This document shows positions 6,001 to 12,000 of a DNA stretch of 24,934 nt, in pieces. The stretch covers positions 1-24,934 of the forward strand of contig JBGFSC010000051.1 of NCBI GenBank assembly GCA_041694815.1, read 5' to 3'. This DNA is from Elusimicrobiota bacterium (GTDB taxonomy: Bacteria; Elusimicrobiota; Elusimicrobia; UBA1565; JACRDR01). The first letter of the stretch is position 1, and every line of letters starts with the position of its first letter. Made by a program: the position numbers.

Positions 6001-9000
6001 CACCAGGGCAAGTTCGCCCGGAGACAGGAGATTGGCCACCGCCGACTCCATGGAGCCGGTGCCGGAGGCGGTCAGCATCAAGACCGTATTCTTGCTCCGG
6101 TAGACGTACTGCATGTCCGCGATCACCTGCTCGAAGCATTTGCCAAACTCCGCGGTGCGGTGGTGGAGGATGGGCTCGGCCAACTTCGCCGAAACGGAGG
6201 GCGGCAATGGCGTGGGGCCGGGAGTAAGCAGGATGGTGGGCCGCGGCTTCATGCGGCAGCGCCGGGACGCTGGAGCGGCTCGCTTCTATCGGTCAGCGGC
6301 GAGCCGAGGCCCGGCCAAGCGGAACCTCTCGCCTTGGCCATCTCGGGCAGCAGGGCCTTGGCGAACACATCAGAGATATGGCGGACCGGATGCATCTCGA
6401 GCTGGGCCAGGACATCCTTGGGGATGTCCTCGAGGTCCTTGGCGTTCGCGTACGGGAACAAGACGGTCTTGATCCCCTCGCGGTGGGCTGCCATCACCTT
6501 CTCCTTGAGGCCGCCGATGGGCAGCACGCGGCCGCGCAGGGTGATCTCGCCGGTCATCGCCACGTCCGGTCGAACGGGGCGCCCTGAGATCTGGCTGGCT
6601 AAGGCCGTCGCCAGCGTGATGCCGGCCGAGGGGCCGTCCTTGGGGATCGCCCCTTCCGGCACGTGTACGTGAAAATCCTGCCTGCGAAAAGTGGCCGGAG
6701 GCACTCCCAGCCACTTGGCGGCGGACTTGATGTAGGAAAGGGCGGCCTGGGCGGATTCCTGCATCACCGAGCCGAGCTTGCCGGTCAAGGTCAGGGCTCC
6801 CTTGCCAGGAGTGGCCACGACCTCGATGGCCAGGACCTCGCCTCCGTGCTCGGTCCAGGCCAGTCCGGTCGCCACGCCCACCTCGTTATGGGCGATGCGC
6901 TCCTGGTGGAACTTTGGGACGCCGAGGTACTTCGGGATGTCTCCGGCATCGATGACGAGCTTTTGGGGCTTCTCTTGGACTATCTTCTTGGCCGCTTTGC
7001 GGGCGAGGCTGCCCATCTCCCTCTCGAGGTTGCGCACGCCGGCCTCCCGGGTGTATTCGCGGATGGCGCGGTCGAGCGCGGCGTCGCGGATCTCGACCAA
7101 GGAGGGAGCCAGGCCGTGGTCCTTGAGTTGCTTGGGGATCAGGTAGCCGCGGGCGATCGATATCTTTTCCCGATGAGTGTATCCCGGAAAGCGCATAATC
7201 TCGAGCCGGTCTTGGAGGCTGACGGGTATCCCCTCGAGCGTATTCGCGGTGCAGATGAACATGACGTTGGAAAGGTCGAACTCGACGTCGAGGTAATGGT
7301 CGAGGAAGGTCGAATTCTGCTCCGGGTCGAGGACCTCGAGCAGGGCGGCCGCTGGATCGCCGCGCCAATCCATTCCCATCTTGTCGATCTCGTCGAGCAG
7401 GAAAACCGGATTGCGGCTCTGCGCCTTGCGCAGGGACTGAATGATTCGTCCAGGGAGAGATCCAATGTAGGTGCGCCGATGCCCGCGTATCTCCGCCTCG
7501 TCGCGGACTCCCCCGAGCGAAAGGCGGACGAACTTGCGGCCCACCGCGCGCGCGATGGAACGCCCGAGCGAGGTTTTGCCCACCCCGGGCGGGCCGACGA
7601 AGCAGAGGATGGGCCCCCGCAATCTTCTCGTCAATTGGCATACGGCGAGGTACTCCAGGATACGCTCCTTGGGCTTTTCGAGACCGTAGTGGTCCTCGTC
7701 GAGCACCTTGCCCGCCCGCGAGATATCCAGGTTGTCGCGGGTCTGCTTGGACCAGGGAAGCCCGATCATCCAATCCAGGTAGGTGCGGCAAACGGTCGAT
7801 TCCGGCGAGAAGGGCATCATCTTCTCGAGGCGGCTTAAATCCTTAAGGGCCGCCTCCTGAGCCGCTTTGGGCATCTTCGCCTGGGCTATCTTTTCGCGCA
7901 GTTCCTCGATTTCCTTGCCGAAATCGTCCTTCTGACGGAGCTCCTTTTGTATGGCCTTCATCTGTTCCGTCAGGTAGTACTCCTTCTGCGTCTTTTCGAT
8001 CTGCGTGCGCACCTGCGAGTGGATCTTCTTGTCGAGGTTGAGGATGTCGATCTCGGCGTTGATGAGGGTGATGAGCTTCTTGGCGCGCGCCTTGGGGTCG
8101 AAACTCTCGAGCAGGGCCTGGCGCTCGGCGATCTTGACGATCGCGCTGGCGGCGATCGTGTCCGTCAGGCGGCCGAGTTCGTCGATTTGGGCGAGGGGGG
8201 CCAGGGCCTCTACGGCCACGCGGCGGCTGAGCTTGACGTAGCGTTCAAAGACCTCGATGGAATGGCGCATGAGGGCGGCGGCCTCGGGGCCGGAGCGCAC
8301 AGGCTCCTCGATGTGCTCCAAGCCGCTTTCCCAATAGCCCTTGCCCGAGAACTGCGGGGAGGCGGCCCGCGCGCGGCTGAGCCCCTGCAGGAACACCTTC
8401 AGCGTGCCGTCGGGCATCTTGAGCGACTGGATGATCTCCGCGAGCACGCCGACCTCGTAGAGGTCCTTGGTCTGGGGGTCCTCGATCGACGCCTGGCGCT
8501 GCGCGACGACCAGGATGAGCTTGGCCGGCTCCGCCGCGGCGGCCTCCAGGGCGCGGATGGATTTCTCGCGGCCGACCGACAAGGGCAGGGCCATATGCGG
8601 GAATAGCACCACGTCCCGGACGGCTAGGAGCGGAAGATGGGAGGGTTTCATTTCTTCTTGAAGGTCATGACCTCGTCGATGATCCCGTAGGACTTGGCCT
8701 CGGCTGCGGACATGTAGTAATTGCGTTCCATGTCCTCGCGTAGCTTGTCCGCCTTCTGGCCCGTGTGCTTGGAGAGGATGCCGATGAGCTTTTCCTTCGT
8801 GAGGTTCATCTCCTTGGCCTCGATCTCGATGTCCGTGGCCTGCCCGCCGAGGCCGCCGTAGATGAGCGGTTGGTGGATCATGACTCGGGCATACGGGAGG
8901 GCGTAGCGGCGCCCCTTGGTTCCCGCCGCCAGGAGCACGGCGCCGAAGGACATGGCCATGCCGATGCAGATTGTGGTGATTGGCGACTTGACATACTGCA

Positions 9001-12000
9001 TGGTGTCGTAGACCGCCAGCCCGGCCGAGACCATCCCGCCGGGGGAATTGATGTAGAGGTTGATGTCGCGGTCATTGTCCTCCGCGTCTAAGTAGAGCAG
9101 TTGGGCGATAATGAGATTGGCGGAGTCAGTGGTCACGGCGCCGTCTTGGCCGCCGACGAAGATGATGCGGTCCTTGAGCAGCCGCGAATAGATGTCGTAG
9201 CCGATGGCCGCGCCCTGGTTCCAGCGTTCGAGTATCGTAGGGATAATCATTTTTTTATTATAGCAAAGCCCGCGTCACTGCTTGGCGACGGCGGCGTTTG
9301 CCTTGACTAAGGCCATTACCTTGCGCTCGCGCAGTAGGCCGCGAATCTCCTCCTTGCGTTCCTCGAATATCCGGCGCAGGCCCTTGCGCTGCTCCTCCGA
9401 GGCCCCTTCCGGTAGGCTTTTCTGGAGCTCCGCCTCAACGTCGGAGTCCGCGACCTCGATCTTTTCGGCCGTAGCGATCGCCTCTAGCAGGAAGGAGAGC
9501 CGGACCTCCGCCTCGGCGCGGGGGGCCAGTTTTTCCTCGAGCTTTTTACGCTCGGCTTCGGGCAGCTCCGCCTTGGGGCCGATCCATTGCTCCTGTACCC
9601 GCTGCGCGAGGCGCTGGAGTTGGTGCTCCACCAGGGACGGGGGCACGGGGAAGGGATTGGCCTTGAGCAGCGCCTCCTCCAGTTGCAGGGCGAGATCTCG
9701 CTCCGCCTTTTGCCGTCCCTCGCGCTCAATAAGTTCCCGGAGATTCTTCTTGAGTTCCTCGAGGGTCTCGAAGCCCAGGTCTTTCGCGAAGGCGTCGTCG
9801 AGCGGAGGCAGCGCCTTCGACTTGATCTCCTTGACCGTGACGCGGAGACTCATGTCCCGCTGGCCCGCCTTCACCGCGACGTCGCGGGTCTCGCCGCGCT
9901 TGGCCCCGAGCAGCCCCTCCACGAGGCCTTCGAGCGTTTGGGGAGAGGATAGGTCGATAAGTTCATCGGAGCCTCGGCTCTCCTTGAGCGCCTTGCCGCC
10001 AGCGAAACCCTGGTAATCGACGACGAGATAATGCTCCTTTTGGGCGGCCTCCCCCGAAAAGGACTCCAGCCGGGCGTTGCCTTCCCGTAACTCCGCCAAG
10101 CGCTTGGAGAGCTCCTCATCGGTGGCCGGGTAGGACTTCTCGACGACGGGCAGCTTCTTGTAATTCTTGAGCTCGAACTTGGGGGCGCACTCAACATCGA
10201 CCTGGAAGACCAGGGGCTGGTCGTCCTCCATGCGCACCGCGTGCACGGCCGGTGAGACCACCGGCTTAAGCTTGGCTTCCTGCACCGCTTCGGGAACCGA
10301 CTTCTGTATCAGTTGGTGCAGGACGCGTTCCTTGGCCTCCTGCGCGAACTGTTTTTGGATCAGGGGCAAGGGGGCCTTGCCAGCGCGGAATCCTGGGAGG
10401 CGGGCCTGCGTCTGGATCTGCAGCCATACGTTATGAGTCGTCTCTTGGACTCGGGAGGTGGGGACTTGAACCTCCAGGGTGCTGAGGCAGCCCTCCTCCT
10501 TGAGCTTCTTGACCTTCAGTTTGTCCTTATTGGAAAGTATTCCTGCGAACATGGCGTCCTCTCGAGTTAAGATTTGGACGGGGAGGGATTTGAACCCTCA
10601 CACCCTCGCGGGTACAAGGTCCTAAGCCTTGCGCGTCTGCCGTTCCGCCACCCGTCCCCCTTTGGCTCCCGCTCAGCTCGAGGGTTTGACCGGCGGGGCG
10701 TCGGCCGGTTTCGCCGCGGGCTTCTCGTCCTTGGCAGGTGCCTTTTCGACGCGCGCGTCGGCCGGCAGCTCCGGGACCGAGAAGGATTCGAGCGTCTCGA
10801 ACATCAGCTTGGCCCCTTGCGCGAATTCGACATTGAGCTTGCCTCCCAAAATGGAGGCCGCCGTGCTCGCCGCCGCGCCGGCGCCGGCCCCGATAACCGC
10901 TCCCTCCTTGCCTCCGAAGAGCACCCCGTAAAGCGCTCCCTGCATCGCCCCCAAAAAGGAGGACCCCCAATGCTTGCCGCCGTGCCCCTCGCCGCTGTAG
11001 GAGAGGGTATCCGTCTTGATCTCGTAGGAACGGCCGTCAAGCTCAACGGTTTGCAGCACCAAGGTTAGCTTGGCCTTCCCCTTGATCCTGCCGGAGGGCA
11101 CCACCTCGGGCAGGACCCCGCGCACGGTGGTCCCGGGAGGGACGACTACCTGGCCGCGCAGCCAAACCCCCTCCTCGATCTTCGCCCGGAAAACATCTCC
11201 AGGCTTGTTCTTGCCCGAGCTGAGCGGGTCGACCAACTCGACGGTTAGGACCGTCCCCCGTGGCACTTCCACCAGGGTTTCCTTGGTCGGCTTGGCTCCC
11301 AGCAGGCAAAGCGAGATCAATATGGGCCATACAGGATTCGAACCTGTAACCTTGCGCTTAAGAGGCGCCTGCTCTACCGTTGAGCTAATGGCCCGGCGAT
11401 GGTCGCGCATCCTTAGTAAGACCCTTCATGATATCAAATAACGAAATACAATTGACAGTTTCGGCGTCGGGGGGTATACTCAGGCCATGAAATCCCAGGC
11501 GGCCGGGCTCATGAAAACGCCTGTCGCGGTGCCTCCCGAGACCTTGGTGACCGAGGTCGCGCGGCTCATGAAGAAGTCCAATATCGGCTCGGTGCTGGTG
11601 GGCGACCCCAAGCGGCCGGCGGGCATCTTCACGGAGCGTGATGTGTGCCGCCGCGTCATCGCGGAGGGATTGGACCCCGCCAAGACGCCCGTCGGCGAGG
11701 TCATGAGTAAGAAACTCGTCACCGTTGACGCCTCGGAGCCGTTGGATAAGATATTCGATTGCCTCGCCAAGGGGCAATTCCGACACGTGCCGATTACCGA
11801 GGGCAAGGAGGTGGTGGGCATCGTATCCCTTACGGACCTCGCCTACGTGTTCCGGGAGATGTACAAGGACGAGAAGTTCCTCGAGAACTTCACCGATTAG
11901 AGATTATAGTCTAACAGGAACTCCTTCTTGCGCTCCAGGGCCGCCGCCATTGTCGCGAGCGTCGGCCGCGGGTCGAGGGTCGAAGCGATCGAGCGCTTAA

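What a model noticed while it worked through the whole genome (the two positions that open the first line are those of the whole stretch)
6249..10552. ClpX is lost: the tig-clpP-lon operon lacks clpX here and across the order
The near-universal unfoldase ClpX is absent although tmRNA, SmpB and two ClpP are present; lon follows clpP directly. The loss covers the order and most of class Elusimicrobia, while Endomicrobia-side families keep it; HslUV and the RNase II/R family are missing here too.
Evidence so far: zf-C4_ClpX 0 of 61 order genomes, control rings in 10 of 14. TIGR00382 45 of 101 phylum genomes: f4 0 of 33, f10 29 of 31, three class members. clpP next to lon in at least 57 of 100 order genomes. 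tmRNA tag ANSPLAWATA. RNB absent.
(Added by a program. Inside this text positions count along the whole contig: contig position 1 is position 1 of the stretch shown here. "Call 12" and the like, gene names such as g00115 and contig names such as C1 are that model's own, and its searches are not shown. The text may have been shortened before it was handed on; [...] marks where a part breaks off. The agent that wrote the report below was given it as the finding of a first reader that could run no searches.)

Follow-up and report, generated by a model that had tools for sequence, protein, structure and literature searches.

The report
ClpX loss rewrites the tmRNA tag
A large group of Elusimicrobia bacteria has cleanly deleted ClpX, the machine that normally destroys proteins marked by the ribosome-rescue RNA, and the mark itself has changed its ending in the older lineages that lost ClpX, most likely so that the Lon protease reads it instead.

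Summary
Confirmed and extended. The window reads tig-clpP-lon, with clpP and lon overlapping; relatives carry clpX exactly between them. No canonical clpX was found in this 97.8% complete genome or in 100 of 100 order genomes. One loss covers most of the class, and four or more separate losses occurred elsewhere in the phylum. New here: the tmRNA tag tracks ClpX. All 34 ClpX-positive genomes end in Ala-Ala, the ClpX signal; 53 of 57 ClpX-negative ones do not. Three separate lineages shifted to hydrophobic-Ala-x-Ala (WATA here), the register of the Lon-read Mollicutes ending. In a blind check of genomes picked by such an ending, mostly from other phyla, 21 of 24 lacked ClpX. Lon is the likeliest reader (about 0.55): its degron-binding patch is changed in this clade, ClpC is not, and sister families lost lon instead of clpX. 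ClpCP remains possible; nothing was assayed. The HslUV and RNase R absences are unrelated to the ClpX loss. Mollicutes and Dehalococcoides are precedents for losing ClpX; six literature searches found no report for Elusimicrobia. The scan's earlier notes held nothing similar.

The parts
10575..10657 (-). tRNA-Leu(TAG), upstream of tig
9275..10552 (-). trigger factor (tig), 425 aa
   Evidence: TIGR00115 293.7 bits, cut-off 180.2
8648..9250 (-). ClpP, 200 aa; by motif, catalytic Ser and His are kept and Asn stands at the position of the triad Asp, as in ClpX-positive relatives
   Evidence: PRK00277 282 bits, cut-off 249; motifs
8648..8651 (-). clpP stop / lon start overlap (ATGA): the place where ClpX-positive class members carry clpX
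6249..8651 (-). Lon (LonA), 800 aa, with the Ser and Lys catalytic motifs; candidate reader of the changed tag
   Evidence: TIGR00763 959.8 bits, cut-off 608; translation
8385..8624 (-). Lon N-lobe stretch with clade-diagnostic changes A10, F87 and Q89; F87 aligns with E. coli L91, a residue of the mapped degron-binding patch
   Evidence: PMC8087443 passages
5149..6252 (-). class V aminotransferase, conserved downstream neighbour (not part of the mechanism)
3534..5147 (-). serA (phosphoglycerate dehydrogenase), conserved downstream neighbour; start inferred
   Evidence: TIGR01327 over cut-off; synteny

Best explanation
SHOWN: clpX was deleted from an ancestral tig-clpP-clpX-lon operon in the ancestor of families f1-f5 and f8 (f11 shares the tag), and separately in f13+f18, f17+f20, one f23 genome and two f14 genomes. 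The older losses go with loss of the tag's terminal Ala-Ala. The ending becomes [W/F/Y/V]-Ala-x-Ala, as if one residue had been put between the two alanines (LALAA to LAWATA; AYAA to AYATA). INFERRED: the tag no longer fits ClpX and has been retuned to a remaining cytoplasmic AAA+ protease. In the clade that holds this genome that protease is most likely Lon, which would bind the Trp and the C-terminal Ala through its N-domain hydrophobic patch. ClpP is kept because ClpC (with McsB and ClpS here) still uses it for other substrates. Odds: deletion real about 0.99; tag change tied to ClpX loss about 0.9; Lon the main reader about 0.55.
For: Synteny: ClpX-positive class members read tig-clpP-clpX-lon-serA (3 of 4 loci); none of 40 lon-upstream loci from ClpX-negative genomes holds clpX. 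Tags: 34 of 34 ClpX-positive end AA, 53 of 57 ClpX-negative do not. In the class clade 46 of 46 end [W45,F1]-A-x-A, with all four Ala codons used at position -3. Tree: the class ClpX-negative set lies on one side of a 97% SH-aLRT branch; the label needs 4 changes against a shuffled mean of 12.6. Terminal Ala-Ala is the key ClpX determinant (PMC7652416, PMC10862746; passages). Mollicutes tags end NYAFA and are read by Lon (PMC9382460, PMC8403727; passages). Lon N-domain: 7 of 55 conserved columns changed in the clade against 3 of 296 elsewhere in Lon, and 0 of 469 in ClpC; F87 aligns with E. coli L91 of the degron patch. Reciprocal case: G118 reads tig-clpP-clpX-serA, with lon deleted and a tag ending LALAA; no canonical Lon was found in G058, G060 or G159 either. 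Blind check: 21 of 24 genomes picked by tag ending have no ClpX-size ATPase, while 3 of 3 AA-tag controls have one. G299, G301 and G302 have ClpB only, no ClpP, and Lon; G292, G294 and G303 show no Clp ATPase and do have Lon.
Against: No degradation was measured. ClpC with an intact ClpP-docking loop and ClpP are kept in essentially all long-standing ClpX-negative Elusimicrobiota, and mycobacterial ClpC1 unfolds ssrA-tagged protein (PMC6274998, passages). Six of the 21 outside ClpX-less genomes (G291, G293, G295, G296, G298, G304; small MAGs) gave no Lon but do have a looped ClpC. The Lon N-domain changes are absent from f13/f18 and f17/f20, and partly from G090. Lon is more divergent in every region in this clade, and control clades also lean towards N-domain change (5 of 189 against 6 of 941). 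Three genomes keep ClpX with a non-AA tag (G305, G306, G307). Three ClpX-less genomes keep AA (G023, G030, G065), and a fourth (G004) has the locus unassembled. The last codons sit in an RNA hairpin, which may add constraint. Kin are not independent: the phylum data amount to about three old and two or three recent events.
Confidence: 0.55

Rival explanations
1. ClpCP takes over: ClpC reads the internal hydrophobic-Ala-hydrophobic-Ala part of the tag, as ClpA and mycobacterial ClpC1 read ssrA, so the terminal Ala-Ala became dispensable.
For: ClpC has two Clp_N repeats and an LGF loop. Clp_N is found in 75 of 80 and ClpP in 74 of 80 genomes, including nearly all ClpX-less ones. The order often has a second clpP, here beside hrcA-grpE-dnaK. 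Six outside genomes have the tag type and a looped ClpC but no Lon hit. PMC6274998 (passages): ClpC1 unfolds an ssrA-tagged protein.
Against: ClpC shows no clade-wide change (0 of 469 columns). The large N-domain change in f17/f20 (26 of 91) coincides with absence of McsB (0 of 10 in f13, f17, f20). The same tag register occurs where ClpC and ClpP are both missing.
Confidence: 0.24
2. No dedicated reader: after ClpX went, the penultimate Ala drifted, and a generic non-polar tail is cleared jointly by Lon, ClpCP, FtsH and a periplasmic tail-specific protease; conservation partly reflects the RNA hairpin.
For: The ending occurs with Lon only, with ClpCP only, or with both. ssrA is weakly read by several proteases (PMC9382460, passages). 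G000 has a second membrane-anchored FtsH-like protein. The W and Ala codons lie in a stem.
Against: Drift does not predict 46 of 46 aromatic-Ala-x-Ala, a conservative W-to-F change that needs two base changes, synonymous variation at both Ala codons, or only 1 reversion to Ala-Ala in 46. The stem sequence differs between families while the residues stay.
Confidence: 0.19
3. A divergent ClpX paralog or an unassembled clpX does the job.
For: ClpX-like ATPases with an intact IGF-type loop occur in 15 of 71 f4, 6 of 18 f5 and 2 of 10 f3 genomes; one order genome holds a clpX-lon fragment.
Against: The paralogs lack the zinc domain and the RKH motif, often sit in island-like regions with WYL or MBL-nuclease genes, also occur in ClpX-positive genomes, and are absent from G000. 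The fragment lies on a 3-kb contig whose Lon is 35-42% identical to same-genus Lons, which are 69-71% alike. The clpP-lon junction in the window is continuous.
Confidence: 0.02

Closest known systems
Mollicutes ssrA-Lon specificity switch (Mycoplasma, Mesoplasma; PMC8403727, PMC8138137, PMC9382460)
   Same: ClpX absent; tmRNA and SmpB kept; tag ends aromatic-Ala-x-Ala (NYAFA there, LAWATA here); Lon present; tig next to lon is seen in Mycoplasmataceae (PMC7804408) and in G030, G085, G084 and G171.
   Different: Here ClpP, ClpC, McsB and ClpS remain, genomes of the order reach 5 Mb, the tag is 11 residues (27 in M. pneumoniae), x is polar (T, H, N), and the loss happened several times inside one phylum with ClpX-positive sisters for comparison.
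Dehalococcoides: clpP without clpX (PMC7804408, passage)
   Same: ClpP kept with a class 1 Clp ATPase and no ClpX.
   Different: Its tag and reader were not examined here; the passage gives no link to tmRNA.
Canonical ClpXP-ssrA system (E. coli; PMC7652416)
   Same: The ancestral state of the phylum: tig-clpP-clpX-lon and tags ending Ala-Ala in 34 of 34 ClpX-positive genomes.
   Different: ClpX and the terminal Ala-Ala are both gone in this clade.

Membership tests
ClpXP-ssrA system | clpX gene (zinc domain, RKH, IGF) | tested here: not met
ClpXP-ssrA system | tag ends Ala-Ala | tested here: not met
   tag ends WATA
ClpXP-ssrA system | ClpP, tmRNA and SmpB present | tested here: met
Mollicutes-type Lon-ssrA switch | ClpX absent, Lon intact | tested here: met
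Mollicutes-type Lon-ssrA switch | tag ends aromatic-Ala-x-Ala | tested here: met
   46 of 46 in the class clade; NYAFA in PMC9382460 passage
Mollicutes-type Lon-ssrA switch | ClpP also absent, only Lon and FtsH left | tested here: not met
   two ClpP and a ClpC
Mollicutes-type Lon-ssrA switch | extended tag (27 residues in M. pneumoniae) | tested here: not met
   11 residues with the first Ala; PMC8403727 passage
Mollicutes-type Lon-ssrA switch | Lon degrades tagged proteins | not testable with these tools
   only indirect sequence evidence
ClpC (G000:C35:4609-7074) | two Clp_N repeats, two AAA+ modules, ClpP-docking tripeptide loop | tested here: met
ClpCP as ssrA reader | degradation of the tag by ClpCP | not testable with these tools
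   no clade-wide change in ClpC; no assay
ClpX (island-borne paralogs in relatives) | N-terminal C4 zinc domain and RKH loop | tested here: not met
   long N-terminus (winged-helix match in 1 of 4 scanned), no zf-C4_ClpX, no RKH; IGF-type loop kept

The most novel reading that the evidence does not exclude
A general rule of bacterial degron evolution: terminal Ala-Ala marks ClpX, and long-standing loss of ClpX drives the tmRNA tag to aromatic-Ala-x-Ala read by Lon. It would have happened independently in Mollicutes and their Erysipelotrichales kin, in Patescibacteria and three times in Elusimicrobiota. In class Elusimicrobia a remodelled Lon N-domain and an 11-residue Trp tag would form a compact protease-degron pair that E. 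coli ClpXP ignores.
Probability: 0.35. Interest if true: 0.85.

Novelty: new variant of a known kind. Interest (0 to 1): 0.72.

Why it matters
ClpX is described as present throughout bacteria except Tenericutes and Dehalococcoides (PMC7804408, passage), and the one worked-out case of a tag changing its protease is in minimal-genome Mollicutes, where Lon had no Clp competitor. Here the change occurs in ordinary-sized genomes that keep ClpCP, several times in one phylum, with ClpX-positive and Lon-negative sisters as natural controls. That makes it directly testable which protease reads a non-Ala-Ala tag and which residues decide it. A named, complete genome of a cultured genus (Elusimicrobium posterum, L352/G308) also shows no ClpX-size ATPase. 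A short tag ignored by ClpXP would also be useful for orthogonal protein degradation.

Tried and rejected
1) HslUV or RNase R as co-lost partners: rejected. 2) Island-borne ClpX paralogs as replacement: rejected; PADLOC gave only weak ATPase matches. 3) clpX in G235: a foreign 3-kb contig. 4) Convergent substitutions shared by all ClpX-less lineages: Lon positions 338 and 341 fit, but also occur in ClpX-positive G003 and G195 and may follow descent; not counted. 5) ClpC N-domain change in f17/f20 as a sign of tag reading: better explained by absence of McsB. 6) ClpP Asn at the triad position as a result of ClpX loss: also in ClpX-positive genomes. 7) ARAGORN at default settings misses the G000 tmRNA; Rfam finds it. 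The automatic resume-codon picker mis-framed or missed 4 of 91 tags; a stop-anchored reading replaced it, and for G115 it gave a different upstream frame with the same LAA end. 8) The careful IQ-TREE search did not finish; the quick tree was used. G025 ClpC and the G118 and G142 Lon rows were not extracted and were left out; G118 has no lon at that locus. 9) No structure or complex prediction was run: the 11-residue tag is below the chain limit and ClpC-ClpP is a textbook pair. 10) Literature searches for Elusimicrobia with ClpX or tmRNA, and for ClpX loss with tag change, gave no such report; subscription journals are mostly outside the library. Supplementary Fig. 1 of PMC7804408 (gene map across bacteria) was not seen and might show Elusimicrobium.
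Full report
1. The observation. The window (G000:C3) carries, on the minus strand, tRNA-Leu, tig (9275-10552), clpP (8648-9250), lon (6249-8651), a class V aminotransferase and serA. 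The clpP stop and the lon start overlap as ATGA, so nothing of clpX is left between them. G000 is 97.82% complete. The clpX model finds only FtsH-like frames at E about 1e-6, while the controls ring over the cut-off in 10 of 14. tblastn with a relative's ClpX finds only weak AAA matches. tmRNA, SmpB, two ClpP, ClpC, McsB and ClpS are present; RNB and HslV are not.

2. It is a deletion from a four-gene operon. Three of four ClpX-positive class members examined read tig-clpP-clpX-lon followed by serA, two of them with the aminotransferase in between. Of 40 lon-upstream loci taken from ClpX-negative genomes, none holds clpX. 29 have clpP directly before lon (one is a duplicate contig of G090), 3 have an unrelated gene between them, 4 read tig-lon, and 4 show neither arrangement, among them a second lon and a contig edge.

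3. Range. 0 of 100 order genomes pass the ClpX cut-off. The four weaker hits are three paralogs of the island-borne kind (two aligned, the third judged by length and score) and a 3-kb foreign contig in G235. In a phylum sample of 201 genomes at least 90% complete, 79 pass: 10 of 117 in the own class and 69 of 84 outside it (counted). A ClpC tree of 40 proteins (quick IQ-TREE, SH-aLRT only, midpoint root) puts f1-f5 and f8 on one side of a 97% branch. It puts f13+f18 (97) and f17+f20 (100) apart from them, and G065 beside ClpX-positive G053; the label needs 4 changes, and starred branches force at least 2. A FastTree Lon tree agrees except for G090 and for splitting f13 from f18, and nests G030 and G085, which lack clpP too, inside ClpX-positive f14. 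The direction (loss) rests on the conserved operon and on ClpX being general in bacteria, not on a rooted test. Absence is uncertain for G004, G005, G013 and G183, where the locus is not assembled or not found.

4. HslV is missing from 80 of 80 phylum genomes whatever their ClpX state. RNB is in 38 of 80, including 11 of 14 order genomes.

5. The tag follows ClpX. tmRNA was found in 123 of 130 genomes searched; I read the tag in 90 of these plus G000, chosen to cover the families. All 34 ClpX-positive genomes end in Ala-Ala. Of 57 without a ClpX hit, 53 do not. The four exceptions are G023 (WAAA, a reversion), G030 and G065 (losses nested among ClpX-positive kin) and G004 (locus unassembled). 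In the class clade 46 of 46 end [W/F]-A-x-A: W in 45, and x is T 22, H 13, N 9, V 1, A 1; the Ala at position -3 uses all four codons. f17 ends VVAHA, VVAYA or VVAHC; f18 ends AYATA and f13 NYAVC. Each looks like the ancestral ending with one residue added between the last two alanines. The last codons lie in a hairpin, but its sequence differs between families while the residues stay. Terminal Ala-Ala is the chief ClpX determinant (PMC7652416 and PMC10862746, passages).

6. Blind check outside the sample. A pattern for tmRNA with an aromatic- or Leu-Ala-(not Ala)-Ala ending, run on the species collection, stopped at 120 hits and gave 80 loci, many of them chance or Elusimicrobia. I took 27: 24 with such a tag in frame and 3 whose true tag ends AMAA. 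Rfam confirmed 22 of the 27; 5 rest on relaxed ARAGORN calls. A ClpX-size ATPase was found in 3 of the 24 (two Solirubrobacterales, one deltaproteobacterium) and in 3 of 3 controls. The 21 without are 9 Patescibacteria-group genomes, 4 small genomes titled Gammaproteobacteria, 5 Bacillota, 1 unlabelled and 2 Elusimicrobia. Many are small MAGs of unknown completeness, they stand for only a few lineages, and the pattern cannot show what other endings ClpX-less bacteria use.

7. Which protease reads it. For Lon:
(a) Mollicutes tags end NYAFA, the same register, and are read by Lon (PMC9382460, PMC8403727, PMC8138137; passages; the primary papers of Gur and Sauer and of Ge and Karzai were seen only as citations).
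(b) G299, G301 and G302 carry such tags with ClpB only, no ClpP, and Lon; G292, G294 and G303 show no Clp ATPase and have Lon. ClpP was tested in 5 genomes only.
(c) Columns conserved in ClpX-positive Lons but changed across the class clade cluster in the N-domain (7 of 55 against 3 of 296), while ClpC has 0 of 469. F87 aligns with E. coli L91, which belongs to the patch that binds aromatic degron residues (PMC8087443, passages). A10 lies beside the C-terminal-residue pocket mapped in Caulobacter Lon, whose carboxylate-binding Arg is kept here as R28 (PMC11882793, passages).
(d) A sister family did the reverse: G118 reads tig-clpP-clpX-serA and keeps LALAA, and no canonical Lon was found in G058, G159 or G060. 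No assembled locus lacked both genes.
Against Lon: six outside genomes have the tag type and a looped ClpC but no Lon hit; ClpC and ClpP persist here; ClpC1 can unfold ssrA substrates (PMC6274998, passages); the N-domain changes are missing in the other ClpX-less lineages; control clades also lean towards N-domain change (5 of 189 against 6 of 941); and the known C-terminal Lon degrons of Yersinia end in His, not Ala (PMC11986505, passages). Odds: Lon 0.55, ClpCP 0.24, shared or no dedicated reader 0.19, hidden ClpX 0.02.

8. Comparison and novelty. It works like the Mollicutes switch but is not a member of it: ClpP and ClpC remain, the tag is short, and the genomes are not minimal. PMC7804408 (passage) lists only Tenericutes and Dehalococcoides as lacking clpX; its supplementary figure was not seen. 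PMC4131195 (passages) does not treat the question. Searches found no report for Elusimicrobia. The scan's earlier notes held nothing on this. Named records with the WAHA, WANA and NVWATA tag types are titled Elusimicrobiales or Elusimicrobiaceae; the own order has no name from the tools. Verdict: a real, repeated gene loss with a matching change of the degradation tag; a new variant of a known kind; interest 0.72.

Noticed in passing
G000:C2:22715-25135, C15:3073-5367, C25:55338-58088, C9:74958-79760, C9:33955-35664, C9:20274-22457: Four ClpC-like ATPases without Clp_N, a Lon without its N-domain and an FtsH-like protein all begin with signal-peptide-like hydrophobic stretches (judged by eye). 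The C2 and C15 proteins keep LGF/VGF loops. Exported AAA+ proteases would be odd. No canonical ClpB was among the AAA_2 hits.
   Followed up: partly
L062-L077: A ClpX paralog family with a long N-terminus in place of the zinc domain (winged-helix match in one), an IGF-type loop and no RKH, often in island-like regions with WYL regulators or MBL-fold nuclease genes; patchy in ClpX-positive and ClpX-negative genomes; no PADLOC system match.
   Followed up: partly
L079 (G118); G058, G159, G060: Reciprocal loss: lon is deleted from the operon in G118 (f6) and no canonical Lon was found in two more f6 genomes or in f7; ClpX and the LALAA tag are kept.
   Followed up: partly
f14 genomes (L088, L090, L115, L116, L127, L128, L135, L145, L181, L182): Family f14 has long hydrophobic tags of about 20-30 residues, and a Clp_N hit in only 1 of 5 genomes; G030 and G085 have lost clpP and clpX and read tig-lon, a Mycoplasma-like end state.
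   Followed up: partly
window 8648-9250 and relatives: By motif, ClpP carries Asn at the position of the catalytic Asp across most of the phylum, while f17/f20 have a different ClpP type with Asp.
   Followed up: no
L352 (Elusimicrobium posterum): The tag ends GFALA rather than W-A-x-A; no ClpX-size ATPase, Lon and a looped ClpC present.
   Followed up: partly
L310, L326, L358, L377 (G286-G289): Records titled Gammaproteobacteria are 0.6-1.0 Mb genomes with tags like those of the Patescibacteria hits and no ClpX; the titles may be wrong.
   Followed up: no
G189:C1, G159:C5, G058:C3, G309:C27, G138:C6: Very long open frames (2,175-5,865 aa) that hold RNB, Lon or AAA_2 domains.
   Followed up: no
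L224 (G235:C228): A 3-kb clpX-lon contig that is foreign to its genome bin.
   Followed up: yes
G000:C27:54582-56303: A second membrane-anchored FtsH-like protein with an intact HEAGH motif and a short N-terminus; its distribution was not tested.
   Followed up: no
window 11452-11480 (+): A near-consensus sigma-70 promoter-like site (11 of 12) just before the small ORF 11487-11900; one found against 1.2 expected by chance.
   Followed up: no
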